DNA of 64,000 nt from contig OZ237755.1 in NCBI GenBank assembly GCA_965178125.1, forward strand, positions 434,001 to 498,000, read 5' to 3'. Made by a program: the position numbers and the translations under genes. The notes under the pieces were generated by a model. The model ran no database searches. It saw only the letters and a list, made by a program, of their open reading frames with translations, and was not told the DNA's origin. This DNA comes from Bilabrum cf. latius (taxonomy: Eukaryota). This document shows, piece by piece, positions 1 to 64,000 of this stretch (the first letter of the stretch is position 1; every line of letters starts with the position of its first letter).

Positions 1-3000
1 CAGATCTGCTGATTGGATCGGTTGACACCAGCTGTCTGTCGCTGTTGCTCCTGCTTCATGAGCTCATTGGTGTGCTTGAGCCTGGTCAAGGCCTCCCTCA
101 AGTCTACCCTGCTCTACTGCAGCGCATGTTCGTGTCCCACAGCCTCCCGGAGTGCTACCTCACTGGAAGACACAAACTGGTTGGCTAGCACGCCTTCCGG
201 CATGGGCATCCCTCGCGGCAGCAGCTGCACCCGGGCCTTTGCCTGCGACATGTAGTCAGCTGTGGCCAGCAGATCGGTCTATTTGGAAACAAGCTGCAGG
301 ATGTGCCTACTCTCGGACAGAAGAGCAGACAGCAGATCCTTCACTGCTCGAGAGGCAGCGACTGGTTTGGACAATCGACCGGATTGCTGGTCTCCTTTGC
401 AGTCGACAAAGAAGGGGATTTCGAATCGCACGGACTGGCTGCTAGCCATGGCACGGAGCACCCTGAGAAAGGCGCTATCGACGATCTTGCCAGTTGCCTA
501 ATCATCCGCAATGGCGCTGTCGACAGCAGCATCACTGTCTTTGCCACGCTTGCCCCTGCCTACTTCCAGCTCCAGATTGCCTTCTTCCTTAGCTTTCTTG
601 ATTGTATCTGCCAATCGCTTCAGCTTATCCTCGTTTTGATACTCTTCAAACTTCCGTTCGACGATTCTTGGTCGCAATATCTCGCCTACCCTGCGCAGCT
701 GTGCCTCTGCAGTGCAGTAGCTGCAGGGAGGACCGGTTCCTCCAAATGCAGATCTGCACTAGGAGCAGTTGTTCGTTCTCATCACAGACTCCAGCGTCGG
801 TTCGAGCAGCGGAGCAAGTGTCTCATACGAGCGCTTCCGGGCATCGCGCAGCTACTGCAACGTTTGCTTCAGCCGCATGTGCAGCGCGTGCATGGAGCGT
901 ACTTCAGGCCATATTACCCCCTTTTGCACCATAATAGCCTGCTCCAGCGAGGCACTACGACCAATGGAATGATTTAGAAGAGTTGCAGCAGCTCGTTCGT
1001 TGGCTTCTCCCACTAAACTGGACACAACAGAAGACGCAACCACGCCCAAGCCGGATCCACTAGATGCACCGGCCGCTTGGGCGGCCTACTTCGACAACTG
1101 CAGGAAAAATGCGTCAATCCAAAGCTCCAACGCTGTAAGACTAGGCACCTAAACATCCGATGCATCTGTGATTGGCCCGACTGATTGGTCTACCGCGGAG
1201 ATCAGGGCCTGTACTTCGGCATCGGAAACAGCTGTTGATGGTGCGTGCACAGGCCGACGAGGTTGTCCAGCGGCTGCAGCACCTGACGCACGCGCACTTG
1301 AGCTAGCACTAGAAGATAAAGCGCCGGAACCCTTGGATCTAGAGCTACGGTCAACCTCTGAAGGCTTCGAGAATGTCCATGCGACAGCTCTGCACTTCCT
1401 TAGGGCGTCACCGAACGCTTTCTGGACCGTCGCTCGGACGGCGGCAGTGTCCCCTTGCTGCATGGCAGCTACTCGTTCCTGACAATCCTTCGCTCTTGCG
1501 CGGAGCTAGGCAACTTCGCCAGCTGTGGCTGCACCTTTACGCTCCAGCATAGCTGCAAGCTTATCAGCAAGATCGCCGATGTTGTGTAGGGCATGCACCC
1601 TGCCAAAGCTGTCAAGCCGCACTCCGGCTGGCTCGCTTTCAGCCGCAACCTCGAGCACACTCTCATACCTTGCCAGTGAGCGGCGAATCGCAGCTTCTTC
1701 ATCATGCGCCACCATGCGAGCCTCAGCTCTGTTGAGCAATCGAGAGGCCAAAGCTCTGGCCACGCCACTTGCAGACATGAGCGGCCCAAGTAGGAGCTTT
1801 GCAGCAAGCGCGTGGCTCTCAAACACAACGCTACGTAGGGCTTCTTCCGCAGAAGTCTGAAGCCCTTGCTTTCTCTTTTCGAACCAACCCCCTAGGCTAT
1901 TGTCTCTTCGCCCCTTTTGCTAGCTAGCCTAAGGCACAGCAAGTGCGAAAGCGCTGTGCGCACGGGCTGCCCCAAGCCGAGGATCACAGCACACCTGTCT
2001 GAGCGGCAACAGAGCATACAGTGCGTTTGAAGTCTCCAGATTAGTGAGTGGTGCATCATCATCATCAAATGGTGCGCGTGGCAATATGGTGCCGCTGCTG
2101 CTGCTGCTGCCGCCGCTGCTGCTGCTGCTGCCAACATCTCTATGGCTTGATGCTGCACCGGCGTCTCCGCCATGTTGCCAACTCCGCAACAGCCCCATGA
2201 GGCGCTTCTCAGCAAAACGGAAGAGGTCCTGATAGTTTTCTTCCTCCATAGGACTGAGAGGCGCTCTGATCACATCGTAGTCAAGACCCGGGATACCGAT
2301 ACTGGTGTCTTCAACCCGCACGCGGCTCATCAGCATGCTAGCCGCCGTTTCTATCCACAGCTTGCCGTAGGGCTGCCGGCGGGCTGGTGACCACACTCCA
2401 AGAACATGACCAAATCTTGCGCCAGAATCTCCGTCGAAGGGAGCCACTCGCATGAAACGGAGCAAGGGGAACAGGTCCATCAGACTGGACCGCAGAGGGG
2501 TGCCTGATACGCACCACCGGTTTGGAGACGGGATGTGCTCGAGCATCTTCGCAGCTGCTGCCACTCCAACACTACCAATGCCACCCGCAGAGTCTATTTG
2601 TGCAGTGGTTGTTCCCCGTCGAACACTGTCGATTGCCTCGGCCAGAGTGCGCTGCCTGGCTGGCTCAATCATCTGTGCCTCGTCGAGTACGATCCGCCAG
2701 AAGTCCAGCATCACTAGCGGACTAGGAATCTCCGCGCTTGTAGCTTTGAAGTTGGCCCGCTGAAGCCGAGCGCTCTTCCGATTTGGTGATCCTCGTGCCT
2801 AGTACACGAGGGCAAGCCTTGCCGCGAATGCAACTGCTACGGCATTCAGGTGCTTATCTTGAATGACGCTCGGCAGCCAGTGCGGCCGTACCGCGAACGG
2901 CCTCTCTGCGATGTAGCGATATGCTTCAACATCAAACCCACGAGAAACAGGAAGAGATTGACCGGTACTCTCCAGCTCTTCGGCAGCAAAAACGGCGGAG

Positions 3001-6000
3001 CGTGCTGCACTTGCCGCGTTGAACACCGCGCGCTGCAGCGGAGACGCCAGTGTCATACTAACCCTTGTTCCTATCTACGACATGACCTCTGGATCCAGCT
3101 CGGCCGTCTCTGACCGCAAAACGCCTTCCTATGCGTCATGGATGCCACGTAGCGTGTTCTAAGCCAGGCTCAGCTCCTTCTTTAGCGTGGAAAACGACGT
3201 GACCACAATGTCGAAGGCAGAGGCAAACTCGACCGGGTCCATCATCTTGGCCGCAAACTGGCAGTCCTAGAAAGCAAGTTCGTACTCGCGAATAGCCTGG
3301 CATCCGGCCGTCACTATTTTCTTTGCCTGCACCCACGCCTTGTCGATTCCAAGGTACGACTTGTGCCACTACAGCATCCTGTGATCCGCGAGCCGTACCT
3401 GCTCCAAGGCTGCCAGTGCCGCATCGAGAACTGCGGACTTTCGCCCTCGGCCTGGTGATGACAACTGGTGCTGATAGGCGCTTCGAAATCGAGCTGCGTG
3501 AGACGCAAGCTTGTCAAAGCTCTTAATGGACGCCTCTCGCTGCCGAATGGCGGCTCGCAGTGACTTGACCATAGCAGACGCAGCCGTATTCGCGGCCGAC
3601 GACGTCCCGCGAAACACAGCAACACGCAAAGCTTTCCCCGACGCATTTGCTCCGATATCCCCTTCCACTTCGCGGCGATCCTTGATGTGCTTGCGAATCA
3701 TCTCGTCGGACCACTGCTCAATGATCTTGTCGGGAGTGACGACGAGGGTGGCACCAGACCTGATCTTGCCGCCGACAGCCGAGGCAGCAAAAGCAGCACC
3801 GGCTCTGCATTCGGGACACACGAAGTTTCGTTGCGGCATCTTGACAGGAACAGACTCTCCTGGGGCATCTGAAATGGAGCAGCAGCGAAACTACTGCACT
3901 GGAGCAGACCCGCTCTCCTTTCGAGCCTTCTTCGCGGCATTTCCTTTGGAAGCGGCCGGCCGGCCTCGCTTGGAGCCCACTGCTGCGACAGAACCAGGGG
4001 CTCCGTCCGCTGCACTCCCAACCATGCCTCCAACAATGCCTTCGATCTCTTCTGGAAGCATGGTGCGATCCGCGATCGGCAAGCCATCGACAAGCCTGTT
4101 TGGGCCAACCGAATCTCCATCTGGATCGTCTGCACCTGCACCGGAGGCCGCAGCACTTGATGCAGCGTTAGAAGCGCTAGTTGATGAATTTTCAGTATCG
4201 TTCAGCCGTGCGTCAAAGCCCCGCGCTATGGCATCATCCAAGCTTGCTGCAGCAAGAGGCAGACCGACCGCTTCGAATACCTGTTCAAGCGCAGTCAACG
4301 GATGGTGCTCAAAGATCGGACCATTTTTGATCCATGCCTCCTCCTTGCTGAACTGTTCCTCTACAGAAACCGCAATCTCCTGAGACCTTCGCTTTCCCTT
4401 TGACGAGCCTCTGCCCTTGCGGCCTGCTCCTCGAGCGCCACCTGCCGCTGCTGCGGGCTATGCTCTGCCCCCACTTCTCCTAGGACCGGAGGCTCGCGAA
4501 GAAGACGTTCTTGATCGGGCACCATCGTCCTCATATTCCTCTTCATCGAAGAGATCGCCCATGTGAGCCTGCCCCTCACTGGCTTGCCGCAGGTACGTCG
4601 ACCTGGCTCCGTCTGCCCGATCCAAGCCCTTCTGATACTTGGCACCAGCTTGCATAATCTTCGGTACGACTCCTTCGCCGTAGATGGCAGCCGCAGCGAT
4701 AGGAGAGGCGATCGTGCCGCAGGGTGATACTTGCCCGGGGTCTGCAAGGGCTGCAATGCAGTGCCTTGAGCACGATGCGCACTGGACCCATCGGAGTAGC
4801 TTGGCTGCATCGCCCTCCTGCCTGATTCCACTGACGCATTCCTTGGCACCATTCTGCCTGTCCACCCCAGGTATGGCGCCTGCCTCCACCTGGGCCTGGT
4901 GCGTTCTTACCGCGGCCCTGATGCCTTCCTAGTATGGGACTGTATCTGAGTCAGGCCTGTGGTGTGCAGCTGCAAGGGCCAGCACATCTAGTGTCTTGCC
5001 GGTCCCCATCTCATCCGCGAGGATGCCAGATCCTTTCAACCAGCCATCAGCTGGCACCAGCTGTGGCGTCTCTGTAAGCATGAAGTCCTCACCGTAGTGC
5101 ATGTACACCTTGGGACACAGTCGCGGACCCGCGTCGCTTGGAACCCAATACAGGATAGATTGTTCCAAGCCCGCAAGTTGAATGAAAGCAGGGTGAACCG
5201 GTAGATTGCGACTGGGGCTCTAATCTTCGGTAGAGGGCTGCTTACCGAGAGCCGATGCGCCCTCCCTGTCCAGCATCCAAGCTAGGGCTTGGGTCTGATG
5301 CGGCATCAGTTTCAGTGCGAGCACCTCATCCATCCTACGCTGGACTGCATCGGGAAGCACGGCACTACCAAGGGTGCTTCTCTAGGCTGCGGCGTACACG
5401 CCTGCCACGCTGGGCGTAGGGTCAAATCGATGCAACGACTCGACCAGCATCCCAGGGCTTGCAGACTCTAGCAGAGCATGCACTTTGGCTGAAATCTGGC
5501 TCCCGGCCCTAGGCGGCGTCAAGCTTCTCTGTACGGAAACCAGCAAACTCTCAACAAACTTGTTCGGTGAATACGTGGCTGACGGCTTAACTCCGAGCCG
5601 ATCTGCAGGAATGCTTCTGCCGTCCATAAGGCAGCAGTGAAACGTCACTGCAACTTTTAGGCGTTCGGACACAGCATCGGCGCTATCGCATCGGCGAGCA
5701 TCAGCGAGCAATGCACACGGTGGTTCCGCTCCAGCTGCCAACCTGTGGCCTGGCATGCCTGCAGCCAGTTTGCGCGAAAGTGCTAGCACATTCTGCACGG
5801 ACCACAGGCCGAAAGCCTTTGTCTGGCATTCTGGGCTGCCAATGATCCCGACGGACGGGACGAACATAAAAGGGAGTGAATGCCGAAAGGATGCCATCTC
5901 GAGACGAGATGCATGCCCATCAGGCAGCGAGACCAAGTCGAAACGTCCATTCTCAAGCGGTATGTCCCACAGCAGAGGCTGAACACTCTCCCAACTCTCA

Positions 6001-8801
6001 TTAGGGTCTGCTTGAACGGGAATTTTGCGCATGTCGTGAGGTGCAATGGCGCCACCGACCTCAAATACTACTTGCCCACATCCGCTGCCGTCTAAGCCAG
6101 CTCCCGGCCCGAAAGACTCCTGCGACGCACGTGCCAGCTCGGATACGTCCCCACACCACGAGTGTCTGCCAGCCATCAAAGGAACGTACATGCCATACCC
6201 TGCCATGAGTGGCCACGCGAACAGCACTCGAGCCACCCTGTCAATCGCTTCGTCATCCTCAATCTAGTTCTAAAATGGACTCCCTCGAGTCTCCGCGATC
6301 GCGATGCGCCCGTCGCGCACATCGATCTGTCCGCGAGTACACATTTGTGAGATGAGCCCTCTGCAAAACTGAAGACATCGGTCACGGATGTCGCTGACGG
6401 CGTTGCACACCTTGCAGTATCGAAGGATCTCAGGCTCTCTATAGTACCATAGCCATTTTGAATGCAAGCTAGTTTGCTACTAGCGAGCGCGACGTTGTTC
6501 CCGTATCTATGTCCGCAATTGAGACATCCGCTTGAAGTCTTCGAGCAAGTAGGCGAGGACTCGGCATCCTTCCCGGACTGGGAAGAGACTCTCTGGGGAG
6601 CAGCCTATCGACTCCTCCGTAGGTGCCCACCAGTTGGTCACTGCTTCGATCTCCAACAGCTTGACCATGGAGACGTCCTTCTAGCGGGGCACGAGATGCT
6701 GGATGGAAGTACCAAACACCTCGTCCTCCTACAAGCTAAAAGCTGGAACGATCAGCTCATCAAACAGGCGCGCGCCCTCTAAAGGGTCCTGCTGCGAAAT
6801 CGAGTCATGCAGCGCTCGGATCTAGCTCTGCTGTTGCTACTCAAGCATATCGTGGCCCTAAGACCAGCCCAAATCGCCAGTGCATCTAAGGCAGGGGTCT
6901 TCACTGAAGTGGTACGACTTGCACATTTCCACAAGCCACTCGGTCACAACTGACCGCGGCAGAGACCTGCCGCAGTACTACCACAGGTACACACCTGCAA
7001 CGTGATGGCACTGCGACTGCAGCAATACTTGGTCAAAGGCGTGGTACCGCTCAGCTTGCGCTTTATGCAGAAGCTCTGACGATAGCTTGACTCCAGTTGG
7101 GGTCACGACGTCACCTCGTCGCCCAGCTCCATCCTGGCTGCCCGCCATTGGAAGACCACCTCGCAGAAACTCCACGCACGTCCGTGCCGTCTCACGTGCA
7201 TTAACCATAGCAATGCAACCGAGGTCCTCGTATTGATGATACCTGTTGTAGCCGTACCTGTCCCACTTGATTGAGGCGAACACTGGCCTAGACTCTGGCA
7301 TGTCTGGCAGCTCTGGGAACAGAGGGCGCGATGCCTTGCCGCTTGCTGGAGCAGAGCTGGATGCATTGGCTTCTCCTGCGGCAGATACCCCGCTAGCAGC
7401 CGAGCTTCCCCCTGCACTTGAATTTGCAGCTGCTATGCTCCGCAGCGCGTCCGCATCATCGTCGCTGTCGAGATCGAGAATCAAGCCAGACTACGAGACA
7501 TCTCGGCTATCAGCACCGTCATCGGCAGGAGAATCACCGGAAGGATAATTGAGCCTCACGTTGTACGGCTTGAGCTCCAGCTAAAACTCTTCGAGCTTGA
7601 CCATTCGGTCGCATGGCAGCAAACAGGGCGCCATTTGTTCGACCTCCTCCATCTCGTCCTCGTCCAATTCGACCTCGACCTCGACTGCCTTGTGTTTCTC
7701 AACCCCTTCCATCGGCCCTGCACCTCCTTCTAGTGAAGCTCTACTGCCTTGCTACTGGTCATTCATGCCATCCGCGGCGTCGTCATCGTCTTCCATGGAT
7801 GCAGATGCAGCTGCCGAGCTGGATGCAGATGCAGCTGCCGAGCCTGCCGCAAGCGGGCCCACTGGTGACTTCGGTCCACTCCCACTGGCCGCAAGCTGTC
7901 CCGTCGAGACGATCTCGACGTCACTATCAGAGTCAGAATCTGAGTCGATGGCGCGCGCACTGCCATCGGAACCTTTAGCCTGAGGCTTGCCGTTCTTTCG
8001 CTTCGTGCCGCCTGCCTCAGGGCCAGCGGAGCCGTTCGAGGCTTCATCTCCGCCACTAGGACCGACAGATTCGAGATCGATATCGCGACGCTTCACATTG
8101 ACCTTGACCTTGACCTTTTGCGTGGAGAGCACCCCGGGGATAACGAGGGGCCTTGGGCGCGGAATGGACCCGTCGATGGCGCTGGCTGCAAAGGGCAGCA
8201 GCTAGGCGATGCTCGCATACTTGGGAATCATGCTCGCAACTGCAATTTGACGGCCAAGCTATTTTCCGGTCCACTGTTGGCCGCCTTGCCAGACTGGCAA
8301 CGCATCGCAACGATCGGCGACATCGCCCGCTGGCATCTTGCTTGCATCGTTGTGAGCATCACGGGCAGGACCGCCGTTCCTTGGTGCAAGGATGCCAGCT
8401 GAAGGGCCCCTTTGCTCGTCAGCACGTGTATCTGACGCACTGTCACTGTCACTTTCAACCATTTTGCTGCCAGCTTTGCTTGAATGTCGAACAAGGCGAC
8501 GCGACGGCGAGCCCGCAGTCTTAGCTTTCTTTGCGCGACGTCTTCGCTACCTCGCTCGCTTCGCAACTCCTGCGAAGTACTCCGCAGATTCAACTTCACG
8601 CTGCCGCAGCTATTCCATTGCAGCAGCCAGTGCGGAACCCCCACTAGCCTGTCTGATTGCCTGGCTAGGCAATTGCACCGGTTCACCACGAGCCTCATTG
8701 TCAGATAAACAACCATCACTCGCCTCCGATTCCGATACGTCCATGGCCCCAGGTAGGCTTGACGGTTCTCGCTTCTTTGGAATTGCCTTTTTCCGCGGCA
8801 T
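1..8801 (-). CDS. SHPRH: SHPRH-like SNF2-family helicase/E3 ligase (3'-partial, >2900 aa, TAG read as Gln)
   Basis: ORF-track fragments ending at 8610, 8259, 7752, 6978, 6270, 5382, 4929, 4458, 3891, 3369, 2799, 1929, 1506, 1149, 852 and 279 are all in one frame and each ends in TAG (about 35 in-frame TAGs by hand count). SNF2 motifs: LMPHQTQALAWMLDRE, GILADEMGTGKT (I), TLVVTPDKIIEQW (Ia), FDIVVTSFSTLKKEL, FWRIVLDEAQMI (II), RWCVSGTP (III). PHD-like remnants WVQCASC...FVCPEC lie between motifs I and Ia, and RVHALHNI is SHPRH-like. ATG at 8801 (MPRKK). RING and helicase-C domains presumably lie beyond position 1. Confidence 0.8.
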
Positions 8802-8981
8802 GCTTGAGATTTTGAAAAATGTACCAAATACGACCGTGGAGGTTCCGCACCCTCTGTGGACGGAATGGCGCGGCGCCAAGCTAAACACCTGCTTCGCTAA
8901 AAATCCGTACTCTAGCTTCAAAGGATGAGCGGCAGCAGGTCGTATGGCCAGCCTAGAGACCAAATTGTGTCTACATTTGGC

Positions 8982-14405: not shown

Positions 14406-14437
<32 letters not shown>

Positions 14438-15271: not shown

Positions 15272-15287
15272 ATCCCTAGTGTGCAGT

Positions 15288-52800: not shown

Positions 52801-54383
52801 CAACTGGGGCTGCGGTACAGGTTCAACACCCAAGTGCAATACAGGGAGGCAGCTCCTCCCCAAGCAGGGGTGCCACGTACCCTGATGCAGGTGCTGATGT
52901 GGCGCGAAGGCAGCAGGCACGGAGACTAGCGATGTCATTGCGTGAGTGGCAGCAGCAGGTATCCCAGCTCGACGCGCGGTACCTGAGCTAGCTACGTCGA
53001 TGCAGGCAAATCAACGACGCCGTGGCTGTACTGGCTGGCACTCTGTGCCTGTTGCAGAATGAGCCGCCCAGCTGGAGGAATGCACAGAGTCTCCTTCACA
53101 GGGCAGGCATTCGGGCAGCGCTCGTGGACATTCACCCCGACGAGATCTCTGACAAGACTCGAGGAATCGTCTCGAAGCTCATCGAGACCAAGAACGTTCG
53201 AAAGTACCTGAGGGACCCGGACCAGTGCGACCCCCAGACCAAGCGGGCTGAGTACGTGCTGATTTCCTGGAGCATAGCCCTGATCGATGCTGCGGAATGG
53301 ATCTCGCTGGACCCTGCCAATCTGCACACTTGGCGAGAGATCGAGGACGAAGGAGTGGCCGGTCACCTTCACGCAGAGGGGATTCACGGCGCGCCACAAG
53401 CCGCAGGCGGCGGGGCTCCGGTCGAGCAATCCAGCAGCGGCTCGGAGCGATTGCGAATCCGTGACGTGACTGCGAGATCATCGCAAGCTTCCGAACGCTC
53501 CAGCGCGCATTCGGCTCGAATGAGTGGAGCAGGCGGAAGCCCAAAGAAGCTCAAGGATGTCGCGCCGATCGGCACAGAGCCAGCGATTCACAGGCGAGTG
53601 GTGTCAGCACCTACTGAAGAAGACAACCCAACCGTGATGGTGAGGCGAGGTGGCGTGGAGATTGCGGTACCCGCTGATGGGGGGCCCCATGGAGCTGCAA
53701 GCCCAGGGCGAGGGTCCGGTATCCAGCCTCACACCGGCTCAGGGTCTGCAAGCCGAGGCGGGTTGAACGGTAGCGAGGAGGGATCCGTGCAGACACCACC
53801 GCGCGGGCGATCCATGTCACGCGGGGACAGGGTGGCAGGCGGGTCTGGTGAGGTACCTGCAGCCTCGGGGGCGGGTGCAGCGGGTGCACCTGCGCTTGTG
53901 CCAAAGGTGCCTCGGCTACCGCCAGCCGATGCTATGCGCGAGTTTCAGCAAGGGTACTTGGTTCGGAAATATGATGCTGGTGGATGGTCCATCTTCGGCA
54001 ACAAGGTGAAGCCGCGGCTGCTGTGGCTCGACCGTTCGCCTGCAGTGACTCGAGTGTGCTGGACGAAGCCGGAAGCAAGCATAGCTGAGATTGCGGATGA
54101 CATCGGTAAGCAAAGGCAGGTCCTGAAACAGTCTGGGGGCCGTGGGTTCAGCAAACCGGCCGAGCCCGACACAGCGATCAAGCAGTCCCACGTGGCGAAG
54201 CTGACGCTCGGTAGAACCACTGAGCTCTTAAAAACTCAGGCACCGGAAGCAGACGAGCCCCTCTGCTTCAGCATTCACACGAGGGAGCGCTCGTTTGACT
54301 TTAGGGCGCCAACACAGGCGCAGCGTGATCACATCGTGAGCTGCATCAGTACGGTGGTGGGCTGCCCCGTGGCGGCCACATGA
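46857..54383 (+). CDS. Very large coiled-coil protein with C-terminal PH domain, ~2508 aa
   Basis: Eleven ORF fragments (47001 to 53022) in one frame separated by TAG only. Coiled-coil stretches at about 47500-49200 and 49930-50460. PH-like C-terminus GYLVRKY...KPRLLWLD...VCWTK...LGRTTELL...LCFSIHTRERSFDFRA. ATG 46857 follows an upstream in-frame TGA. TGA stop. Confidence 0.8.
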
Positions 54384-54466: not shown

Positions 54467-57400
54467 TCACACCATCTCCACTTCTCGGCGTTCACCGCCC
54501 TCGTCCTGCTCGCCACCCGTTCGTCCTGTGGCTTTTGACTCATGGGAGCCCTAGACCTAGCCCTGCGGACTGGTGGCATCGTCAGCGCCGCCCTCCTCCG
54601 CATCATCATCCTCCTCCTCGACGAGAATCGGCCCGGGGCCGATCGTCGCTAGAAGCACAGGCAGCACAAACACAGCGTGCAGCAGCCCAAGGATGATTAC
54701 TGCTCCAAGAAGCTGGGCAAACACCTCAAATATGTACGAGCTGGCGCCAGCATACAGCAGTGCCAGTCCCAGCAGTGAGCTGAGTCCACCTTGGAAGACT
54801 GGCCGCCCCATGTTTTTCAGTGCCGAAATCGCGCGCTCGTGCCGCATAGTGCCCCCGAAGCAAGGCTCGTCCTGCCAGCGCAGTGCCACGCTCTTCTGTC
54901 CCGCAATAGACCCCGCGTCGGCGTGCTTGTGCTTGCCACCACTCGCCAGGAAGGCGTGGGTCACGTGTGCCACAGCATCAACGGACAGTCCGATGGCCAG
55001 CACCAAGTTGATACTGCTGATGGAGTTCAGCTTGATGTTGACTGCATACATGAATCCAAACAGCATGACTAGCACAGATGCAAGCGCTAGCACAACGATG
55101 CCAATTGCGTTCAGCCTGGGCAGGAGCACTGCAGCCACGCAGAGGATAGCGGCGACTGCCAGGAAGACGGTCTGCAGGGTCGAAGGGACGATGATTGCAA
55201 ACTGTTCAAAGAATACAAGCTGCTCGAGCGAAAGTACGATCGAGTCCGCGTTGATATTTTCGCCGCTTTCTCGTTGGATCCGCTTGGACTCCTCCTCTAG
55301 GGTCTTGCGCAGCGAGATCATCGCGTCTGCTTGTTCCTGGGAGCCATCCAGCGTACGCGAGCGGACCGTCATCAAGGTGCCCGCAATTTCGATCTCAGTG
55401 CCGGCTTGAATGGCAGCGACTACCTGCGGGGTGTCTGCACCTGGTTTGTAGATATCACCGCTGGAGGGATCCCGGAACGAGATCGAGTCAGCGACCCTTC
55501 CGCTTGCAGCGGGGTTGGACAGGAATGCGGCGAGGTGGCCTCGCAGGGCGGCAGCATCGAAATTCTCCGTGGATAGACCGGTCTGTAAGCCCTCCAAGAA
55601 CTGATGAAAGGGCCCAATCCATATTGTATCGGAGCTCTCCGCGAAATCGTCTGCTGCCACATAGGCAGGCCCAAGTGAAGCCATGGCCGAGCGCACGGCA
55701 GCGAGGCCGTAGTCCACGTGGTCGCTCTAGCCCGGGCTGGGGTTGGGAGCCACCACGTCGAACGGAATACCAAGATTGTAGAACTCAATCTGCGCGTCCT
55801 AAGCATCGATGAAGAAGTGACCGTTGGGAGCGAGCAGCTGGAGGTCGAGCCCTTGTTCGACGTGCACGAAGCCGTAGATGGAACCGCCGAGCATGGCAAG
55901 CCACAGCACAAACACGACTACTTTCCCGGGGGTAGAAAGCACCAAAGGGCCAAGAAACTCTGCAAATGCTAGATCCCACCAGGCACCCACGTAATTCTCG
56001 TCCGTCTTGCCAGAGGTGCCTACCGTCGAGCTTGGATGCTGGGTGACCGAGGCAGCGCTACTCTCGCCCGCCCCATCACCTGAACCATGTTTCGAGGCAC
56101 TCTCAGCAATAACTTGAGCTTGATCTGCATCAAAAGACACAGGAGCCGACGCCCTTGGCTCCGTACTGCCTGCAGGGAGGGCGCCATTGCTGGCAGCCTT
56201 GCCATTCACCTCTGTCGTCTCGCTGGCTGGAACACTTGCAGCGACCCCTTGAGCATTTGACTTGTTAGGCCCGCCAGGCGACTTGGCCGCGGGGTCTTGC
56301 GCCGGAGCGGATTTGGCGCCGTCCTCTGTCGGCGAATCGTAGCCGCTGCCTGCCTCGTCTTGTGCCGACTCCACCGGTTGGCAGGTGATGCTAGACAGCC
56401 CAGCCTCCTCCCTCCTGGCGTCAAGGACCATCAAAGGGGCGAAGACGAGCAGCATGCTAAAATAAGCAAAGAATAAGCACGCCGCCGTGAAGGCACAGAA
56501 TATCCTGACAGAGTTGAACGGAGAAATGCCACCAAGCCCGAACGCAAGAACGTCGGTAGTCGTCGTCAATGTGATGGCAACGCTGCGATACGATTTAAAC
56601 AGAGCAATACGAAAATACTGTAGCGTAAATATGGGATCAATACAAGCCCATTACAGCTCTACAGGGCACAGAATGAAGCAGAAATGCGAGCAATACGTGG
56701 CAGCAAGGCAAGTGCATTGGCGAAGCCGAGCTCACCCAGCATCTCTCAGCGTCTCCCGCATCCTGACCTCGGCGCTGTGCCAGGAAGGGGTGCGCAAGTA
56801 CGTGGCAGTCAGCACGAGCGCATTATCAATGCCGAGTGCTAGCAACAAGAACGGCGACACCCCGACGATAGACACGAACGGCAGGCCGGCAAAGGAGCAA
56901 ATGCCGAACCCCGCAGGGATGGCTATCGCAGTGGCAAGCACGCCGCCCTGCGCCAGGATGCTCTTGTTCCTGACAGGATCGGGAGAGAAGGAAAGGATCG
57001 ACACCAGCACGCACAGCATGACGAATGTCAGAGATATGAAGAGGAAATCGCCAGATGTGCTCGCCTCAAGCGCGTCGTCAACGGCTCGTCCCGAGTCCCG
57101 GGTCATGATGTACCCGTCGGGGAACGTCCCATCCCTCCTGGCCTTATCCTCCCACGCCTCCAGCCCATCTGTGAATGCGAGCTCCCATGCGCTCACCAGC
57201 TCTTCTGTGACCTCATCATCGCGGTCGTAACTGAGCCTGTAGGTCGCGCGGAGCGCCTCTGCACCCACCGCCACCTGCCCGTTCTGGCTGAGAACAGGGT
57301 CACCCAGCCTGGTCGGAACCAGGATTCCAGACCCAGTCGATGGATCTATGCACACTGGAAAAGAGAGCGGTACCGATTCGTTCGGTACAAACATCTGGTC

Positions 57401-57892
57401 GGCGTTCCACTGTGGCAGGCAGCGGGTGGGAATGTCCGTGGCGCAGTCTCCGCTGGGCTCTCGTTCGCAAACGTCATCGTACCGAATGGTTCGACCGTGC
57501 GCATCTGTCTCTAATTGCAAGACTTCTGCGTGTATTCGATTAAGCAAATCGATGCCTGTCGGGTCCCATACATTCGATCTATCCTCTTTGAAAACAATGA
57601 CCACGCCGGAACCGCTGGAATTGAAGGGAAACGTTTCTCGCATCACCTCCCGGTCCTAGTGGGCCTGAGAGTCAACAGGTGTGAACAAGAATTCGCTGTC
57701 GTTGTTCTAAGTCAGGAGTGCCATCCCACTCCCAAGAATTCCGATTGCCACAAAGTAGCTCCCCATCATCAGCAATAACGTTGTTGCGCTAGAACGACCA
57801 AGGAACGTCCCATACCGAGCAAAGCAGGCTTCAAGCGTGTGAACAGGCACAGTCGGGGAACACGATGCGCATGGGTCGTCTGGTTTGCTCAT
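54467..57892 (-). CDS. Patched/NPC1-family RND transporter with sterol-sensing domain, ~1090 aa
   Basis: Exons 57892-56736 and 56582-54467 (intron GTGAG...CGCAG). SSD motifs PFLLLALGIDNAL, ETLRDAGVAITLTTTTDVLAF, VRIFCAF. Second TM bundle LNSISSINLVLAIGLSVDAVAHV and GLLHAVFVLPVLL. Six in-frame TAG. TGA at 54467. Confidence 0.9.
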
Positions 57893-58173
57893 CGTATGCG
57901 CGGCAAAACTAAATTCCGCTGGAGATGCACTGCTGGGGTAACCCCGGCTTTCAATCCAATCTACGCGGAACCGGGCGGTATATTAACTAAATTACAACAA
58001 TTTTAGCAGCAAAAATTATTCAATGGAAACGCAGTTCGTATGCTCTAGCCATTGATTGTGATCCGCTAGTCATATACCAGTTCCATTGGCAGATTTCTGC
58101 ACGGTACAATAGCTATCCGGCAGCAGGATGAGAAAATGGGTATAGACGCACAAGACTAGCCTAGGAGCCGGTC

Positions 58174-59840
58174 ATGAAGTCTTCTATTGCTATGGCGTGC
58201 ATTGGGGCATCTATTGCGCTGGCAGCGTCGTATCCTCCGGCACCTGCAAGCTGCACAGGCACCCCGAACACTATCCCCGTGGATACCTCAACGCCAACCT
58301 TCGTGTCCAGAGCTGGCAATGGCACTCGGTGGTCCATTCAACCTGCTGGTATGAAGGTACCTCTCAACGTGTTTCACTTGTCAGGAACACCGGCCGAGAT
58401 GGGGAAGGTGAGACAACTCTGCTAATCATTTTGACGCAGCTGCAGGCACTGCATTAAACTCCGCACGGGCGTACTTTCCGTGCCATCGATAGACTGGAGC
58501 ATGGTAATCTCACTGTGCTGATGCAACGGCAGATCATTCTGAATCTCGCATCCGTCTCCCCAAAGTCGTTGTTTGGCGATCCGAGTTCCCGCAGTCTTAC
58601 GCCATGCTTGCCAGGCAGGAGATGCTCAAGATTGTGCCCGAGTTTTACGATTATGTTGACGGAGAGATCGCACAGTACTTGGAATGGCTGCCGCCCGCGG
58701 TTCGCAAGGCTGTGGAGCAGTGGGGTATTTCAGCTGGTGAGGCCAAGACCTTAGATCTAGGCCTTTTGGCAAGAACGGCACCTGTCGAACTCATGTATTT
58801 GCAGCATTATCTGTTTCGCCGGGCCAAGCAATGCACCGGTGTTTGTTTTGCACACGTATTTCCTCGCAGCCCTCAACATCACCCTGGACGCCACCCGGGA
58901 GTTCATCCCCGACCGCTTCTTCGAGATGGCCCACGCCATCGAGGACGAAGTCGGCTTCCCGCGGGACCACGTCCTCAAGCTGTCCCTGTTCCCTGAGCTC
59001 ATCAAGATGGGCTGCTCCATGTTCGGCGCGTGGAACGACGCGTCCGCGGACGGCACGGGCCTCCTCCAGCTGAGGGCACTGGACTGGGACTCGGACTCGC
59101 CTGCGCAGCAGTTCCCTGCAGTCATCAACTTCCACCCCTCCGGTGACGGGAACGTCACCGAGCACTCGTACAGCGTCGTGGGCTGGGTCGGTCTCCTGGG
59201 TGCCGTCTCAGGGTATTCCTCCGCCGGCATGGCTTTGTCAGAGAAGGTGTGGCTGTCGTACGACGGCCTGGAGAACATCGTTGGGGTGCCCACCACTTTC
59301 CTGCTCGAGGATATCCTGAGGCATGACCTCGACACAGACCAGTCCCTGGCACGGATCGCCAGCGCCAACCGCACCTGCTCCATCTTTATCGGCCTTGGCG
59401 ACGAGTACAACAACGAGTTTAAGGTGATCGAGTACGGCTATGAGCACGTCAACATCTGGAACTGGAGGACCTGCCCCACGTGGGAGAACCACGACCGCTT
59501 CACGGACCTCGTGTTCGTCGACAAGCACGTGTAGCCCTCGACGCACCCCTGCCTCAACGACCTCATGCACCAGCTGTACGGTGACCTGGACGCGGCCGCC
59601 ACCGTGTACGTCACCTCCCTCTTTGAGACAGGTGACACCCACATCGCCATCTACGACTTCGAGGCGAAGGAGATGTACGTCTCCAACGCAGCTCCAACCA
59701 ACGCCTCCGCGATTGCGGCCACCTTGGGCGATGAGGCGGCTGCCAAGGCCCTCAAGGATAACAAGGCGTACAACCAGCCGTTCGTGAGGTTCGACATGAA
59801 CTGGATGTGGAACGCCTCCCTGGCCACCGTGCAGGGCTGA
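58174..59840 (+). CDS. Acid-ceramidase-like Ntn-hydrolase (Dictyostelium dcd1-like), secreted/lysosomal, ~448 aa
   Basis: Exons 58174-58407, 58595-58736, 58870-59840. Signal peptide MKSSIAMACIGASIALA, HLSGTPAEMGKSY, PELIKMGCSMFGAW (candidate nucleophile Cys), LQLRALDW, SGYSSAGMALSEK, RTCSIFIGLGD, DKHV[TAG]PS. TGA stop. Confidence 0.8.
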
Positions 59841-60088: not shown

Positions 60089-63000
60089 TTAGCGTCGCGA
60101 ACCGGGGTCGGCATCCTGCTTTGCCTAGGCTGCAGCAGCTGCCAGCCGCGCCCGCGCCTCAGCCAGCATGGAAGCACTTCCACCCTAGAAGTCGGAACCA
60201 GCTGCCGCGCTGCTTCTGCCAGTCGTATCCATGCCATGCTCCGCACCACGAGGGCCCGACGAGTTGCCGCGACCGGTGCTCCCACCACCTTGGCGCTCCG
60301 GAACAGCAGCGAGAGCAGACCGTCCGACTGCAGACCTGCCCCTATCGCCATACGCCGACTCGAATTCGTCCCTGCGCTAGTACTACTGGTGCTACCGAGC
60401 CGAATCGCCCCCATCTACCCCGCTAGCCAGGCCTCGTAATGCAGCAGCCGCGGATGAGACGTCATCCCGTCTCTGATGAACGCCTGCTGAGCGACCTCTT
60501 TCGTCGTGAATCATGCCGTCGTCCTGCCCGGCTCGGTCTAGTCGATCCAAGACAGATCGCGGGACAATCTAGGACTCCGACAGGCTGCCGGCAGATGCAA
60601 CGCTGCTCGCAGTCGATGCTTGCGAGGGCACTCGGTGTCTCAGCTCGTCCGCACGCGCGTGCTGCTGGCTATCCTGCGGCTCTGACCTTCGGCATGCGGG
60701 CGATGGCCCGCGTGGGGGCAATCCGCCAGCCGCACCGGCAGTCCCAAGACCGGTTGTGCCAGGCCCGGCGCCCTTGCCGTACCCTCTGCTGCTACCGTCT
60801 TGCTCCCCCCAGCCTGCGCCGTCTGTCATGTCTTGCTCTGTGAAGGAAGTCTCGTACTGAGTGGAATCAACCCTAGTTACGTCTTGACTTCGCTGGTGCG
60901 CATCATCTCCACGGGTAGATCTATCATTCGCGAGTCCAGCACCCTCGGCAGGCGGCTCCCGCCCACGTTGGGGCGCCCACGAGCTAGAACGCGTAGCCTT
61001 TCTATCTTGCGACCTCTGAGTTTCTACCAAGGAGCGCTGCAGCAGCTGCTTGTTAGCATCGGCGAGCTGCTGCACTGCCCTCTTGAGCTGGCTCTTTTCC
61101 GCTTCAGAGCGCGCCAGGCGAGCGTTAAGCACCTCCTGTGGCACAGCGGGAGGCTCAGCCTCCCGCACCAGGCTGGTTCTCAAAGCCGACCGCGATTGGG
61201 CGGGTGCATGGGCCGTGGCACCCTCGCTAGCATCTCTTGCAAACGATTCCTCCACATTGTTGTAGAGTCCCGGCTCGCCGCCTGCGCCAGCCGTTGCGTC
61301 CAGCCGAGATTGCAGCTCACTTGCGTCAACAGCCGCTGCCTGTGCCTGCCGCTTGACCAGCAGGAGGCGCTTTGAGGCAAGAACGATCCTCTCCTCTGCG
61401 CGCACTCTCCTGGCTCGATGCTCGTCACAGGTCTGGGAGAGCGAATCCAGGTACTTCTGTGCCCTATCCACGGCTTTGGCAACGGACTCAGGAAGCGCAA
61501 CACCGCTATGAGAGCCGCCTATGGCCGACCGCAGTCGTGGAGCGCCCGATCGGGACGCGCCGCCGCCATCGCTATCACCGTCACTGAAGGCAGCCGACTC
61601 CCCAATCCTCTATCCCTTGCCCCTTGAGCTCGATACTCCTCCGCTGCCTTCGCGGTACTCCTCCTCCTAATCGTCATCGTCGTCGTACTCGTCTTCTCCA
61701 CCAAGCTAGAACCTCCGCTTGAGCCGCAATCCAGGGGTACCCCCAGATCTGCGCTTTGTCGTCCTTCGCCTCGATGAACTAAGACCGGCACCTTTGCCAG
61801 CGGGTACCCCACCTTCGCCATCGCTGTCGCTGCCGATGCTGCTTGCAGTCCCTCCAACCGCGCGGCGGAGCCTGCTACCGCTGGCCGGGTACGCTTCCGA
61901 CCTAGATACACCTGCCGCCCACTCGGCGCACTCTCTCAGCAAAGCCTCTGCCTTTCGACGCATGCCCGACCAGTCATCATGTTCCCTAGATACCCGCTCG
62001 CGCAGCGTCTTCTTCAAATCACTTTCCAGCGCGTTCAGCCGTCTCGAGTACTCGAGCGCCTTTGACTGCCGCACCGCTCGAATGGCCTCATCCATGTCGC
62101 CCACGACGGCGGCTCGCAGCGTTTCCAGTTGATTTCGGCCCTCCTCCTCCGCGTCCCTCTCGTGTTCTTCCAGCACTCGCTGTCTGGTACTATCGAGTGA
62201 GCTTCGTAGAGCTTCCATGGCACGCGCCGTCTCAGCGTCGATGCGAGCGCTTGCTGCTGCTTTGGCTGCTTCCAGCCGCTCCTGACCCCTCTGCCTCTCT
62301 GCCTCCAGTTCTGCCTCCCTATCTCTGGACATTCTAACCTCTAGTGCCTCAATTTCAGCTGCCTACGCCCGCTTGAGCGCCTCCTGCAGCTCCCTGAGGT
62401 CGTCGTCCTTCCGCCGAGTGAGCTCTGCCTCGGCCTCCTTCACAGCGTCCTGGTGCTGCGCCTCCAAGGCAGCGCGAAGCTCCACCGCAGCAGCCTCCCG
62501 CTCCTACGTCAGGCGATCCGCGATGTCCTTGCGCCTCCCCGCGAGCCGGTCCTCGCTCTGCCTCATGGCCTCGGCTGCCAGCGACTCAGCTGCCTGGGTG
62601 TGTTCCTGCCTCGCCCGGTCCTCCAGCTCCGATTCCGCCCTGGCGGCAGCCGCCTCCAGCGCCCTCCTCGCGTCCGCCATGCGCTGCTCATGCTCCTGCC
62701 TCAGCTGTTCCCTGAGCGAACCCAGCCTCTCGTCGTTCTCTCTCTCGCATGCAGTCCTCAAGTCCCTCACGGCCTCCTCGAACCTGAGCTCGGCCTCTTC
62801 CCGCAGACGTGCCTCCGCCCTCTGGCCCCTGCTGCGGTGGCTGTCCTCTATGCGCTACAGTGCAGTGTCTTTGTCTTCCACCAGCTGCTGCGCCACTGCA
62901 TCCAGCCTCGCCTCCCTTTGCTTCTCCCCCTCGATCGCCACCATGGTCAGCAGCCGCTCCGACTGCTCCCGCGCCTGTTCCCTGAGGGCCTCTTCCCCTG

Positions 63001-63865
63001 CCAGCGCGTCCTGCTCCTGTCGCTGGAGCAGCTGTTCGGTCCATTCGCCCGCCTGCCTTGCGGCGTCCGCGGCTGCTTTGGCCATGCGGTCGACAGCCTG
63101 CGCCGTGGGCCCGCGAGCGGCTGCGTCCATTCGCTCCGCGACCTCTGTGCCCAGCAGGGTCTCGATCCTGCGCCGCAGGGCGGTTAGTTGTTCCCTGGAT
63201 TGATCTGCCAGGACATGAGCCCTGTGGCTGGCATCGTTCTGCACTTGTTCCCTGAAGGCATCGAGGACGGCTGCGTGTCCTGTCGGCATCACGGCGAGCT
63301 GGCCCGCACCCGCAGCACTTGCTCCGACAGAGCCACTGGTTCCGCCAGGATGCAACAAGCTCCCGTTTCGTACGCTCTACAGCGTCCGTTCAAAGTCCTG
63401 TTCCGCTTCTCGCACCGCCTTGGGTCTCGTATGGTACGCGTCAGGGTCACGCGTATGCCTCGTCGGCGATGCCTTCGTGCGACCAGATGACATTGTTCGG
63501 CGGCTGCGCGAAGGTGCAGATGACTGTGATGAAACAACTTTTGTAACCTGCTACGGGTTCCTATCGAGGCCCTTTGCCTTTCCAGGCGGGATCCACGCAG
63601 GAGGCGGTTGAGGGTTTCTCCTCTGCTCGGGACCCGAAGCTGATGATCGGGTTCGTCCATTTTGCGATGCAGAGCCAATACTTGCAACTGTTTCGTGATT
63701 TGATCCAGCACCGTGCGGGAGGGGCAGCGTCGGAGCTGGAGGCATCGGTCGGGCTGGTGAGATGGGACCAATTCCGGACAACCCGGTAGCCTCCGCAGCG
63801 CTATCCCTGTGATCGGCTGTCAGGCGCGCAAGCTACCGCAGAAAGCTTGAATCCTGAAATTCCAT
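60089..63865 (-). CDS. Hypothetical coiled-coil protein, ~1258 aa
   Basis: ATG 63865 in AAAAG-ATG context. Fragments ending 63551, 62855, 62504, 61706 and 60569 are in one frame joined by TAG. E/R/A/Q-rich helical middle. The first non-TAG stop is TAA at 60089-60091, with TGA four codons later at 60077. Confidence 0.75.
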
Positions 63866-64000
63866 CTTTTGTTTATCAGATACTCCCCAGCGCCTTTGAG
63901 GTTAGTGAAGGTGCCCAACGTCTACTTGCAGAATCGTGCAATGCATAGTAATATGTTAGTAGCGTGCAGATTCAAATGCAGTATTGATTTCGCGAGGGAA

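What the first reader, a model, noticed from the sequence alone, without database searches (positions are those of the whole stretch)
1..64000. Non-canonical nuclear genetic code: UAG is a sense codon throughout the window
Seen in sequence: in every multi-fragment gene the ORF-track pieces share one frame and are separated exclusively by TAG. Examples are about 35 TAGs in the 8.8-kb SHPRH-like gene and many in the 7.5-kb PH gene and the 4.7-kb HELQ gene. There are no frameshifts and no internal TGA or TAA in the stretches I read. Catalytic motifs are intact on both sides of the TAGs, and 17 of 18 genes are affected (the short ML gene has none). Inference: this is genome-wide codon reassignment, not pseudogenisation or leaky readthrough. 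Established knowledge: in most eukaryotic nuclear variants UAA and UAG are reassigned together. UAG-only reassignment is rare, with reports from a fornicate, a rhizarian and a few ciliates. A GC-rich compact genome like this could be an independent origin.
Basis: partly seen in the sequence, partly recalled or inferred. Interest (0 to 1): 0.97.

Follow-up and report, generated by a model that had tools for sequence, protein, structure and literature searches.

The report
Eukaryote that reads UAG as glutamine
This GC-rich stretch of a eukaryotic nuclear genome uses the stop codon TAG as an ordinary codon, most likely for glutamine, in nearly every gene, while TGA ends the genes; this rare kind of code change is already known from a few other protists.

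Summary
With TAG as a stop, the longest stop-to-stop frame is 509 aa. With TAG read through, frames reach 3074, 2525, 1579, 1430, 1315, 1270 and 1200 aa; reading TAA or TGA through does not do this. In 16 long ORFs (18,102 codons) there are 162 in-frame TAGs and no internal TAA or TGA. I count 18 gene models, 17 with TAG.

Contigs of three runs carry spliced GT..AG joints, so they derive from transcripts. In one of them 42 of 47 in-frame TAGs are covered with no base difference. That rules out editing, splicing-out and assembly error.

TAG most likely means glutamine:
- Fragments of closer relatives show Q at 6 of 9 window TAG sites (E 2, P 1).
- A metagenome relative has the same gene order and 14 in-frame TAGs in its helicase gene. 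Q lies opposite TAG at 4 of 9 well-aligned sites.
- One TAG sits in a column that is Q in 39 of 47 distant homologues.

TAA is not a sense codon here. TGA ends 16 of 17 genes and TAA ends one.

The organism is unplaced. Its stop usage differs from Iotanema and from ciliates. Verdict: real, a new member of a known kind.

The parts
3..9224 (-). SNF2-family (SHPRH-like) gene. It runs off the left end of the window. The ORF is 3074 codons with 39 in-frame TAGs.
   Evidence: Pfam SNF2-rel_dom E 1.4e-25. Relatives' fragments P0195-P0197 cover residues 642-1081.
9080..13027 (+). Low-complexity ORF of 1315 codons with 17 TAGs and no Pfam family. Ends in TGA.
13224..15479 (-). AP-endonuclease (APE2-like) gene. 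The ORF has 5 TAGs and ends in TGA.
   Evidence: Pfam Exo_endo_phos E 2.2e-22. PDB matches to AP endonucleases.
15057..16652 (+). Gene for an EGF-like plus glycoside-hydrolase-like protein, probably secreted. One TAG, at 15405.
   Evidence: Atlas nearest clusters carry EGF_Teneurin/EGF_2.
16756..21048 (-). Coiled-coil, low-complexity ORF of 1430 codons with 11 TAGs. Ends in TGA.
21582..22778 (+). Ala/Gly/Ser-rich ORF of 398 codons with 2 TAGs. Uncertain gene model: the opposite strand is also open.
22990..25855 (-). Ankyrin-repeat gene in two ORF pieces: 22990..24954 with 3 TAGs and 25286..25855 with 2 TAGs. An intron between the pieces is inferred, not shown.
   Evidence: Pfam Ank families in both pieces
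25973..28519 (+). Gene for a GHKL-ATPase (HATPase_c) protein with 3 TAGs. Ends in TGA. Its homologue lies upstream of the helicase gene in relative L001 too.
28675..33414 (+). HELQ/PolQ-type helicase gene of 1576 codons from the ATG at 28684, with 17 TAGs. Ends in TGA. This gene gave most of the evidence on the meaning of TAG.
33559..36147 (+). ORF of 862 codons with 8 TAGs. No family and no homologue found.
36954..37478 (-). ML-domain (NPC2-like) gene of 174 codons. It is the only gene model without a TAG.
   Evidence: Pfam E1_DerP2_DerF2 E 2.9e-13
37716..41318 (+). Leucine-rich-repeat protein gene of 1200 codons with 13 TAGs. It contains a long (Gly-Ala)n run.
41418..44012 (-). UFD1 gene with one TAG. 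That TAG lies directly before a run of seven Gln codons.
   Evidence: Pfam UFD1_N1/N2
44454..46632 (-). ATP-grasp protein gene with 3 TAGs. An intron at 46419-46553 (135 nt, GT..AG on the gene strand) is removed in the contigs of X6, X7 and X8.
46806..54383 (+). Coiled-coil gene of 2525 codons with 20 TAGs. Ends in TGA. From 46823 it is covered by one X6 transcript contig with no base difference.
   Evidence: The PH domain is not confirmed.
54467..57982 (-). NPC1/Patched-like gene. Two ORF pieces are joined by a 153-nt intron (56583-56735, GTGAGC..TCGCAG). The spliced ORF is 1090 codons with 6 TAGs.
58274..59840 (+). Unnamed gene with G+C 0.81 at third codon positions. Two 5' introns (about 58406-58592 and 58736-58868) are removed in X6, X7 and X8. 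The spliced ORF is 389 codons with 1 TAG. Two further TAGs of the unspliced frame lie in the second intron (read from the coordinates).
60089..63901 (-). Coiled-coil gene of 1270 codons with 15 TAGs. It is the only gene in the window that ends in TAA.

Best explanation
The window is nuclear DNA of a GC-rich, intron-poor eukaryote whose translation reads UAG as a normal sense codon, most probably glutamine. UGA is the usual terminator. UAA is not a sense codon and ends one gene. UAG would supply about one sixth of glutamine codons (162 TAG against 574 CAG and 241 CAA).

Shown here: TAG lies in frame in 17 of 18 gene models. The TAGs are kept in spliced transcripts. Coding sequence after the TAGs is conserved in relatives. 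Relatives share the trait. Glutamine is the residue most often opposite TAG.

Inferred from what is known of other UAG-only codes (PMC5304391): a tRNA-Gln with anticodon CUA, which pairs with UAG but not UAA, and a release factor eRF1 that no longer recognises UAG. Neither gene lies in the window.
For: (1) ORF lengths and the exclusive presence of TAG in frame, with TAA and TGA read-through as controls.

(2) Transcripts:
- Contigs of runs X6, X7 and X8 (two studies) skip 135, 153, 187 and 133 nt at GT..AG borders that fit each gene's strand. DNA run X5 has none of these joints.
- Splicing restores the frames.
- 42 of 47 in-frame TAGs between 44.4 and 63.9 kb lie under X6 contig pieces. The only base difference in X6 is 60154 G>A, which changes CGG to TGG and touches no TAG.

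(3) Closer relatives. Protein fragments with 62-95% identity align to the window's helicase and SNF2 genes.
- At 9 distinct window TAG sites they show Q 6, E 2 and P 1. The binomial p is 1e-6 at a 5% Q background.
- Fragments stop exactly before a window TAG at 4 sites, before a window Q at 2 and before S at 1.

(4) Distant relative L001, a 6691-nt metagenome contig.
- Its helicase ORF of 1649 codons has 14 in-frame TAGs, no TAA or TGA, and ends in TGA.
- The upstream gene is the homologue of window 25973..28519.
- In well-aligned columns TAG lies opposite Q at 4 of 9 sites (p 7e-4). That equals the conservation of ordinary Q there, 0.42.
- The codons opposite window TAGs are CAA, CAG and CAA.

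(5) Helicase TAG 277 lies in a column that is Q in 39 of 47 distant PolQ/HELQ homologues, R in 7 and K in 1. It aligns to Q of human PolQ.

(6) BLOSUM62 likelihood ranks Q first.
- On the 9 near sites E trails by 4.7 nats, K by 9.1 and R by 9.4.
- With the three fragment ends added, E trails by 7.0.

(7) Q is enriched next to TAG by 1.76-fold. Next to Q itself it is 1.73-fold, and no other residue exceeds 1.46 (p 0.003).
Against: - The sample of informative sites is small: 9 in closer relatives and 9 well-aligned in L001.
- Two sites with nearly identical flanks show E, and one shows P.
- Over all 27 aligned TAG sites of the window-L001 helicase pair, including poorly aligned low-complexity stretches, alanine scores slightly above Q, by 1.2 nats.
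- Other helicase TAG columns are variable in distant homologues. TAG 110 is mostly R, TAG 1217 mostly A and TAG 1168 mostly M.
- The neighbour-composition classifier assigned only 12 of 57 ordinary codons correctly. It tied R and Q for TAG, so it has little power.
- The stop codon that ends the relatives' fragments is not known, because only their proteins were available.
- No tRNA gene lies in the window or in L001/L002, and no whole genome is held. The decoding machinery is therefore unseen.
- Whether UAG also terminates some genes cannot be told from 17 gene ends.
- The 'RNA' status of X6-X8 is the tool's guess, and it marks X6 as 'probably DNA'. I rest on the spliced joints.
Confidence: 0.86

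Rival explanations
1. UAG is a sense codon but stands for another amino acid. Glutamate is the main candidate, as in one reported ciliate. Leucine (rhizarian exLh), serine (Scotinosphaera), lysine and arginine are the others.
For: - Two of 9 near-relative sites show E with 11-12 of 12 flanking residues identical.
- TAG 110 lies in a column that is mostly R in distant homologues.
- The context classifier ties R with Q.
Against: - Q appears at 6 of 9 near sites and at 4 of 9 well-aligned L001 sites.
- L appears at none of the 9 near sites, and S only once, at a fragment end.
- Likelihood puts E 4.7 to 7.0 nats below Q, K and R 9 or more below, and L outside the first six.
- The one strongly conserved column is Q in 39 of 47 homologues.
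Confidence: 0.08
2. The code is ambiguous. UAG is glutamine inside genes but also ends some genes near their 3' ends, as the dual-use stop codons do in karyorelict ciliates, Condylostoma and Blastocrithidia.
For: - It cannot be excluded, because true protein ends were not determined.
- In four genes the last TAG lies only 12-37 codons before the TGA or TAA that closes the frame. One is the NPC1-like gene, whose last TAG is 28 codons from the end.
Against: - TAGs are spread evenly along the ORFs, with no pile-up or depletion in the last decile (9 and 19 in the last two deciles).
- Both genes on L001 end in TGA.
- The helicase ends of the window and of L001 still align after their last TAGs.
Confidence: 0.1
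3. There is no code change. The TAGs reflect pseudogenes, leaky read-through, RNA editing of UAG to CAG, or a sequencing or assembly artefact.
For: None found.
Against: - Only one of the three stop codons is involved, and there are no frameshifts.
- There are up to 39 TAGs per gene, so leaky read-through would give essentially no full-length product.
- Spliced transcript contigs from two studies keep the TAGs with no base difference.
- Independent DNA runs hold the same sequence.
- The protein sequence after the TAGs is conserved in relatives at 47-95% identity.
Confidence: 0.01

Closest known systems
Iotanema spirale (Fornicata): UAG = Gln, UAA and UGA = stop (PMC5304391; sections 5-9 in passages, section 7 in full)
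   Same: The same code table. Only UAG is reassigned, to glutamine. In-frame UAGs are scattered through ordinary genes. UAG is not seen as a terminator.
   Different: - Stop usage is the reverse. I. spirale uses UAA in 104 and UGA in 15 of 119 gene ends. The window uses TGA in 16 and TAA in 1 of 17.
- The window is 60% G+C.
- Common descent was not tested, because no marker gene was available. The stop usage makes identity with I. spirale unlikely.
Ciliates with UAG = Gln and UAA kept as stop: Protocruzia tuzeti and two phyllopharyngean lineages (PMC11687900; passages read)
   Same: The same meaning of UAG, with UAA kept as a stop.
   Different: [quoted passage not shown] Their G+C is 27-54%.
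- Here the contig is a 64-kb, 18-gene stretch at 60% G+C, with introns of 89-187 nt, and TGA is the main stop.
Rhizarian exLh (UAG = Leu) and the green alga Scotinosphaera (UAG = Ser), both with UAA as stop (PMC5304391; PMC11687900 passage)
   Same: UAG alone is reassigned, uncoupled from UAA. One weak lead points to Cercozoa: it is the commonest phylum in the nearest Atlas cluster of one window protein, with the phylum known for only 5 members.
   Different: The amino acid differs. No L occurs at the 9 near-relative sites, and S occurs only at one fragment end. Both rank far below Q in likelihood.
UAR = Gln codes (NCBI table 6 type): Hexamita, Streblomastix, ulvophycean algae, Amoeboaphelidium, many ciliates (listed in PMC11687900, passage)
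   Same: A stop codon is read as glutamine. The presumed route is a mutated tRNA-Gln.
   Different: UAA is not a sense codon here. There are 0 in-frame TAAs in 18,102 codons, against 39 and 80 in the other two frames. About 68 would be expected from the CAA:CAG ratio.
TAG = Gln ('code 15') bacteriophages
   Same: TAG is read as glutamine.
   Different: Those are phage genomes in bacteria. This window has spliceosomal introns and eukaryotic genes such as UFD1, NPC1-like, PolQ-type helicase and ankyrin.

Membership tests
Nuclear code with UAG = Gln and UAA/UGA = stop (Iotanema type, 'table 15') | In-frame UAG in many expressed, conserved genes | tested here: met
   There are 162 in-frame TAGs in 18,102 codons, and 17 of 18 gene models carry one. 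TAGs are kept in spliced transcript contigs.
Nuclear code with UAG = Gln and UAA/UGA = stop (Iotanema type, 'table 15') | UAG positions correspond to glutamine in homologues | tested here: met
   Q at 6 of 9 sites in closer relatives, at 4 of 9 well-aligned sites in L001, and in 39 of 47 homologues at one conserved column. The sample is small.
Nuclear code with UAG = Gln and UAA/UGA = stop (Iotanema type, 'table 15') | UAA is not a sense codon | tested here: met
   0 in-frame TAAs against 39 and 80 in the other frames. Reading TAA as Q does not lengthen the ORFs.
Nuclear code with UAG = Gln and UAA/UGA = stop (Iotanema type, 'table 15') | UAA and UGA act as terminators | tested here: inconclusive
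   TGA closes 16 of 17 gene ends and both genes of L001. TAA closes only one gene, and a further stop follows 4 codons later. Its role as a terminator therefore rests on one case.
Nuclear code with UAG = Gln and UAA/UGA = stop (Iotanema type, 'table 15') | UAG never terminates a gene | not testable with these tools
   True C-termini are unknown. See the ambiguous-code rival.
Nuclear code with UAG = Gln and UAA/UGA = stop (Iotanema type, 'table 15') | A cognate tRNA with anticodon CUA and an eRF1 that has lost UAG recognition | not testable with these tools
   No tRNA lies in the window or in L001/L002. No Rfam match. No genome is held.
UAR = Gln code (table 6 type) | Both UAA and UAG are sense codons | tested here: not met
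   TAA is never in frame.
UAG = Leu code (rhizarian exLh, some phyllopharyngean ciliates) | UAG positions correspond to leucine | tested here: not met
   0 of 9 near-relative sites show L. L is not among the six best amino acids by likelihood.

The most novel reading that the evidence does not exclude
The window comes from an undescribed eukaryotic lineage with at least two deeply diverged members; the window organism and metagenome relative L001 share only 47% helicase identity. In this reading the lineage reassigned UAG to glutamine independently of fornicates and ciliates. It did so in a 60% G+C genome where UGA is almost the only terminator. This background is the opposite of the AT-rich, UAA-dominated genomes of the other cases whose composition or stop usage was given in what I read. 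It would count against AT-pressure 'codon capture' as the route to losing UAG as a stop. DNA and transcript data for this organism already exist in public runs.
Probability: 0.5. Interest if true: 0.78.

Novelty: new member of a known kind. Interest (0 to 1): 0.66.

Why it matters
Nuclear code changes that separate UAG from UAA are few. The papers read here list one fornicate, one rhizarian, one green alga and some ciliates. Each new case tests how a release factor and a tRNA can tell UAG from UAA.

A case in a GC-rich genome with TGA as the main stop would be a useful contrast to the AT-rich cases. There, a shrinking use of UAG as a stop is invoked to explain its loss.

There is also a practical side. 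Standard gene callers cut this organism's proteins at every TAG. The public protein collection holds its relatives only as fragments of 43-263 aa. Annotation and phylogenomics of this lineage will therefore be wrong unless TAG is translated as glutamine.

Tried and rejected
- Whole genome: none is held, so no genome-wide codon inference and no search for tRNA or eRF1 was possible.
- No tRNA and no Rfam family was found.
- Earlier notes of this scan: nothing for this genome or for similar sequence. The word search returned only recoded phages.
- Neighbour-composition classifier of codon meaning: only 12 of 57 control codons were assigned correctly. TAG tied R and Q. Rejected as too weak.
- PDB alignments:
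  - Helicase TAG 277 lies opposite Q and TAG 110 opposite K of human PolQ.
  - The NPC1-like TAGs fall in poorly conserved luminal stretches, opposite I or a gap.
  - The AP-endonuclease TAGs lie outside the aligned parts.
- Word-based homologue searches:
  - The full helicase search found only four PolQ/HELQ-type relatives; the best local alignments of the three best were 32-35% identical (29% for the fourth), the other 33 hits being weaker helicase matches.
  - The 862-aa ORF at 33559..36147 found nothing.
- Metagenome scan with the SNF2 N-terminal part: 70 pattern matches, none confirmed.
- Scans of genome contigs and viral contigs with the helicase alignment returned only distant archaeal, bacterial and viral Hel308-type helicases: 14 and 10 loci at 28-40% identity.
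- Placing the organism failed.
  - The named best helicase hits are insects, plants and an amoebozoan.
  - One Atlas search gave a weak Cercozoa lead and the other gave bacterial ATP-grasp clusters.
- No RNA holder is listed on record for the stretch. The three 'RNA?' runs were judged by their spliced joints instead.
- Literature: four searches found no report of a GC-rich non-ciliate eukaryote with UAG=Gln other than those cited. Supplementary files were not seen. They may list codon usage or G+C for Iotanema and the ciliates.
- Pfam does not confirm a PH domain in the 7.6-kb gene.

Full report
WHAT IS THERE

The window is 59.7% G+C and densely packed with long genes on both strands.

- Read with the standard stops, the longest stop-to-stop frame is 509 aa.
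- Read with TAG as a residue, single frames of 3074, 2525, 1579, 1430, 1315, 1270 and 1200 aa appear. Together with shorter ones they tile most of the window without overlap.
- The same test with TAA as a residue changes nothing; the longest frame stays 509 aa.
- With TGA as a residue the result is only scattered, mutually overlapping frames up to 868 aa.

In 16 long ORFs counted from the first ATG (18,102 codons) there are 162 in-frame TAGs and no internal TAA or TGA. The other two frames of the same DNA hold 173 and 189 TAG, 39 and 80 TAA, and 259 and 424 TGA. So TAG is as common in frame as out of frame, while the other two stops are fully excluded. The TAGs are spread evenly along the ORFs, and the base that follows them is distributed roughly as after CAG.

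THE GENES

Pfam and PDB searches name these genes:
- an SNF2-family gene with 39 TAGs;
- a PolQ/HELQ-type helicase with 17 TAGs;
- UFD1;
- an AP endonuclease;
- a GHKL ATPase;
- an ankyrin protein;
- an NPC1/Patched-like transporter;
- an ML-domain (NPC2-like) protein;
- an ATP-grasp protein;
- an LRR protein.

Several long low-complexity or coiled-coil ORFs have no family. I count 18 gene models. The PH label for the 7.6-kb gene is not confirmed (E 0.26). The helicase keeps its conserved blocks on both sides of its TAGs, as the alignments to PolQ show.

TRANSCRIPTS

A search of public runs found DNA runs that hold all sampled words of 54400-64000, and three runs guessed to be RNA that hold 41-88%.

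Laid on 44001-64000, the contigs of those three runs (two studies) skip 135 nt (46419-46553), 153 nt (56583-56735), 187 nt and 133 nt (about 58406-58592 and 58736-58868). One run also skips 89 nt near 44116-44204. All skips have GT..AG borders on the strand of the gene concerned. The DNA run X5 has none of these joints. The contigs also break at the promoter-side gaps between genes. I therefore treat them as transcript-derived, although the tool marks the kind as a guess.

Splicing restores the reading frames:
- The two NPC1-like pieces become one ORF of 1090 codons with 6 TAGs.
- The gene at 58.3-59.8 kb becomes 389 codons with 1 TAG.
- The ATP-grasp gene becomes 676 codons.

Of 47 in-frame TAGs between 44.4 and 63.9 kb, 42 lie under X6 contig pieces. 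The only base difference in that run is 60154 G>A, a CGG-to-TGG change unrelated to TAG. The TAGs are thus neither edited nor spliced out, and they are not an assembly error.

RELATIVES

The exhaustive protein search with the helicase returned about 140 PolQ/HELQ homologues at 29-44% identity. It also returned six short fragments at 51-95% identity. These come from unnamed Logan, ENA and JGI assemblies. A further search with part of the SNF2 protein gave three more fragments.

These are pieces of the same genes in related organisms, cut by standard-code gene calling. Four distinct fragment ends fall exactly before a window TAG.

One relative could be fetched as DNA. L001 is 6691 nt at 57% G+C. 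L002 is the same sequence from another metagenome, with one base difference. L001 carries:
- a helicase ORF of 1649 codons with 14 in-frame TAGs, no TAA or TGA, and a TGA end;
- upstream of it, the homologue of the window's GHKL-ATPase gene with 4 more TAGs, also ending in TGA.

The two helicases are 47% identical over 1476 columns, up to their last residues. The trait is therefore shared by organisms that have diverged a good deal, and selection has kept the protein sequence downstream of the TAGs.

WHICH AMINO ACID

Four lines point to glutamine.

1. Closer relatives. At the 9 distinct window TAG sites covered by these fragments, the opposite residue is Q six times, E twice and P once. The binomial p is 1e-6 at a 5% background. 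Two fragments stop where the window has Q, and one where it has S.
2. Relative L001. Among columns with twelve ungapped flanks of which at least six are identical, TAG in either sequence lies opposite Q at 4 of 9 sites (p 7e-4). The rest are A twice and F, G and R once each. Ordinary Q is conserved at 0.42 in the same class of columns, so TAG behaves like Q. The codons opposite three window TAGs are CAA, CAG and CAA.
3. Distant homologues. The helicase TAG before the ...VGLSAT motif lies in a column that is Q in 39 of 47 distant homologues. It is Q in human PolQ.
4. Neighbours. Q is 1.76-fold enriched next to TAG, the same as next to Q itself (1.73). Every other residue is at or below 1.46 (p 0.003). 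The single UFD1 TAG directly precedes seven Gln codons.

A BLOSUM62 likelihood over the near sites puts Q first, E 4.7 nats lower and K and R 9 lower. With the fragment ends added, E is 7.0 lower.

Against this reading:
- The numbers are small.
- Two E sites have almost identical flanks.
- Over all 27 aligned helicase sites with L001, including low-complexity stretches, alanine scores 1.2 nats above Q.
- The other helicase TAG columns are variable in distant homologues.
- A neighbour-composition classifier was too weak to use, with 12 of 57 controls correct.

Leucine (the rhizarian code) and serine (the Scotinosphaera code) are not supported.

THE OTHER STOPS

TGA closes 16 of the 17 gene ends visible in the window and both genes on L001. 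TAA closes one gene, and another stop follows four codons later.

TAA is clearly not a sense codon. About 68 in-frame TAAs would be expected if it were used relative to TAG as CAA is relative to CAG, and none is seen. Its role as a terminator rests on one gene. Whether UAG also ends some genes, which would make the code ambiguous, cannot be told from these data.

MECHANISM

Shown: UAG is translated through in essentially every gene. With up to 39 TAGs per gene, decoding must be efficient.

Inferred from established knowledge of UAG-only codes (PMC5304391, passages on mechanism): a tRNA with anticodon CUA reads UAG but not UAA, here presumably of glutamine identity, together with an eRF1 that has lost UAG recognition. 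Neither gene is in the window or in L001/L002, and no genome is held.

COMPARISON WITH WHAT IS KNOWN

UAG-only reassignments in nuclear genomes have been reported from (PMC5304391; PMC11687900 discussion passage; PMC10553269 abstract):
- Iotanema spirale (Gln);
- a rhizarian from Lygus hesperus (Leu);
- Scotinosphaera (Ser);
- an oligohymenophorean ciliate (UAG Glu, UAA Lys);
- Protocruzia;
- phyllopharyngean ciliates (Gln twice, Leu once).

So the code table itself is known. The window differs from I. spirale in stop usage: UAA 104 and UGA 15 there, against TAA 1 and TGA 16 here. It differs from the ciliates in composition and stop usage: their G+C is 27-54%, with UAA the most used stop and UGA the least.

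The organism could not be placed:
- The best named helicase hits are insects, plants and an amoebozoan.
- The relatives' fragments are unnamed.
- The only hint is a weak Atlas lead to Cercozoa.

Four literature searches found no report that fits this organism.

VERDICT

UAG is a sense codon, very probably glutamine. UAA is not reassigned, and UGA is the working stop.

It is a new member of a known kind of code, probably in a lineage not yet described for it. Its GC-rich, TGA-terminated background makes it a useful contrast to the known cases. An independent origin remains open until the organism is placed.

Noticed in passing
window 38.5-38.7 kb (LRR gene) and 27.7-27.9 kb (GHKL-ATPase gene); L001 helicase ORF: Long dipeptide repeats are encoded inside genes. 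The LRR protein has a (Gly-Ala) run of about 30 units and the ATPase protein a (Gly-Ser) run of about 25 units. The relative L001 has (Gly-Arg)n and (GGGNGS)n runs at other places in its helicase. Microsatellite-like expansions seem to be tolerated within coding sequence in this lineage.
   Followed up: no
window 54383-54467: One X6 transcript contig of 11,070 nt runs from 46823 to 58045 across two convergent genes, whose stop codons lie only 84 nt apart. Their 3' ends probably overlap.
   Followed up: no
window 36954-37478 and 54467-57982: An NPC2-like (ML domain) gene and an NPC1/Patched-like gene lie within 20 kb of each other. These are the two partners of the lysosomal sterol-export pathway as known from animals and yeast (recalled, not tested).
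   Followed up: no
window 16756-21048 (-): A stretch of about 23 residues, acidic at its start and basic at its end, occurs twice in tandem in the translated coiled-coil ORF (seen in the translation). It looks like a recent internal duplication.
   Followed up: no
window 60154; 62659; 46912-48642: Differences seen in the laid runs. X6 has G>A at 60154 (CGG to TGG, Arg to Trp). One X7 contig lacks one base at 62659. One X7 contig joins 46912 to 48642 with non-canonical TG..GT ends and only 21 letters on one side, which is probably an assembly artefact.
   Followed up: partly
window 58274-59840 (+), 41418-44012 (-) and 36954-37478 (-): The 58.3-kb gene has the highest G+C at third codon positions, 0.81. 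It has 1 TAG and the ML gene 0. UFD1, at 1 TAG per 865 codons, has the lowest TAG density among the long ORFs. The long low-complexity genes have 8-13 TAGs per 1000 codons. This resembles the rarity of the reassigned codon in highly expressed genes reported for the rhizarian exLh (PMC5304391). Expression level was not measured here.
   Followed up: no
window 15408-16649 (+): The nearest ESM Atlas cluster of the EGF plus glycoside-hydrolase-like protein (score 0.93, 63 members) is eukaryotic, with Cercozoa as the commonest recorded phylum. The phylum is known for only 5 members. This is a weak lead to the organism's affinity.
   Followed up: no
window 44116-44204 (-): An 89-nt intron is removed in one X6 contig. 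It lies upstream of the UFD1 ORF start and downstream of the ATP-grasp gene's stop. It is probably a 5'-UTR intron of UFD1.
   Followed up: no
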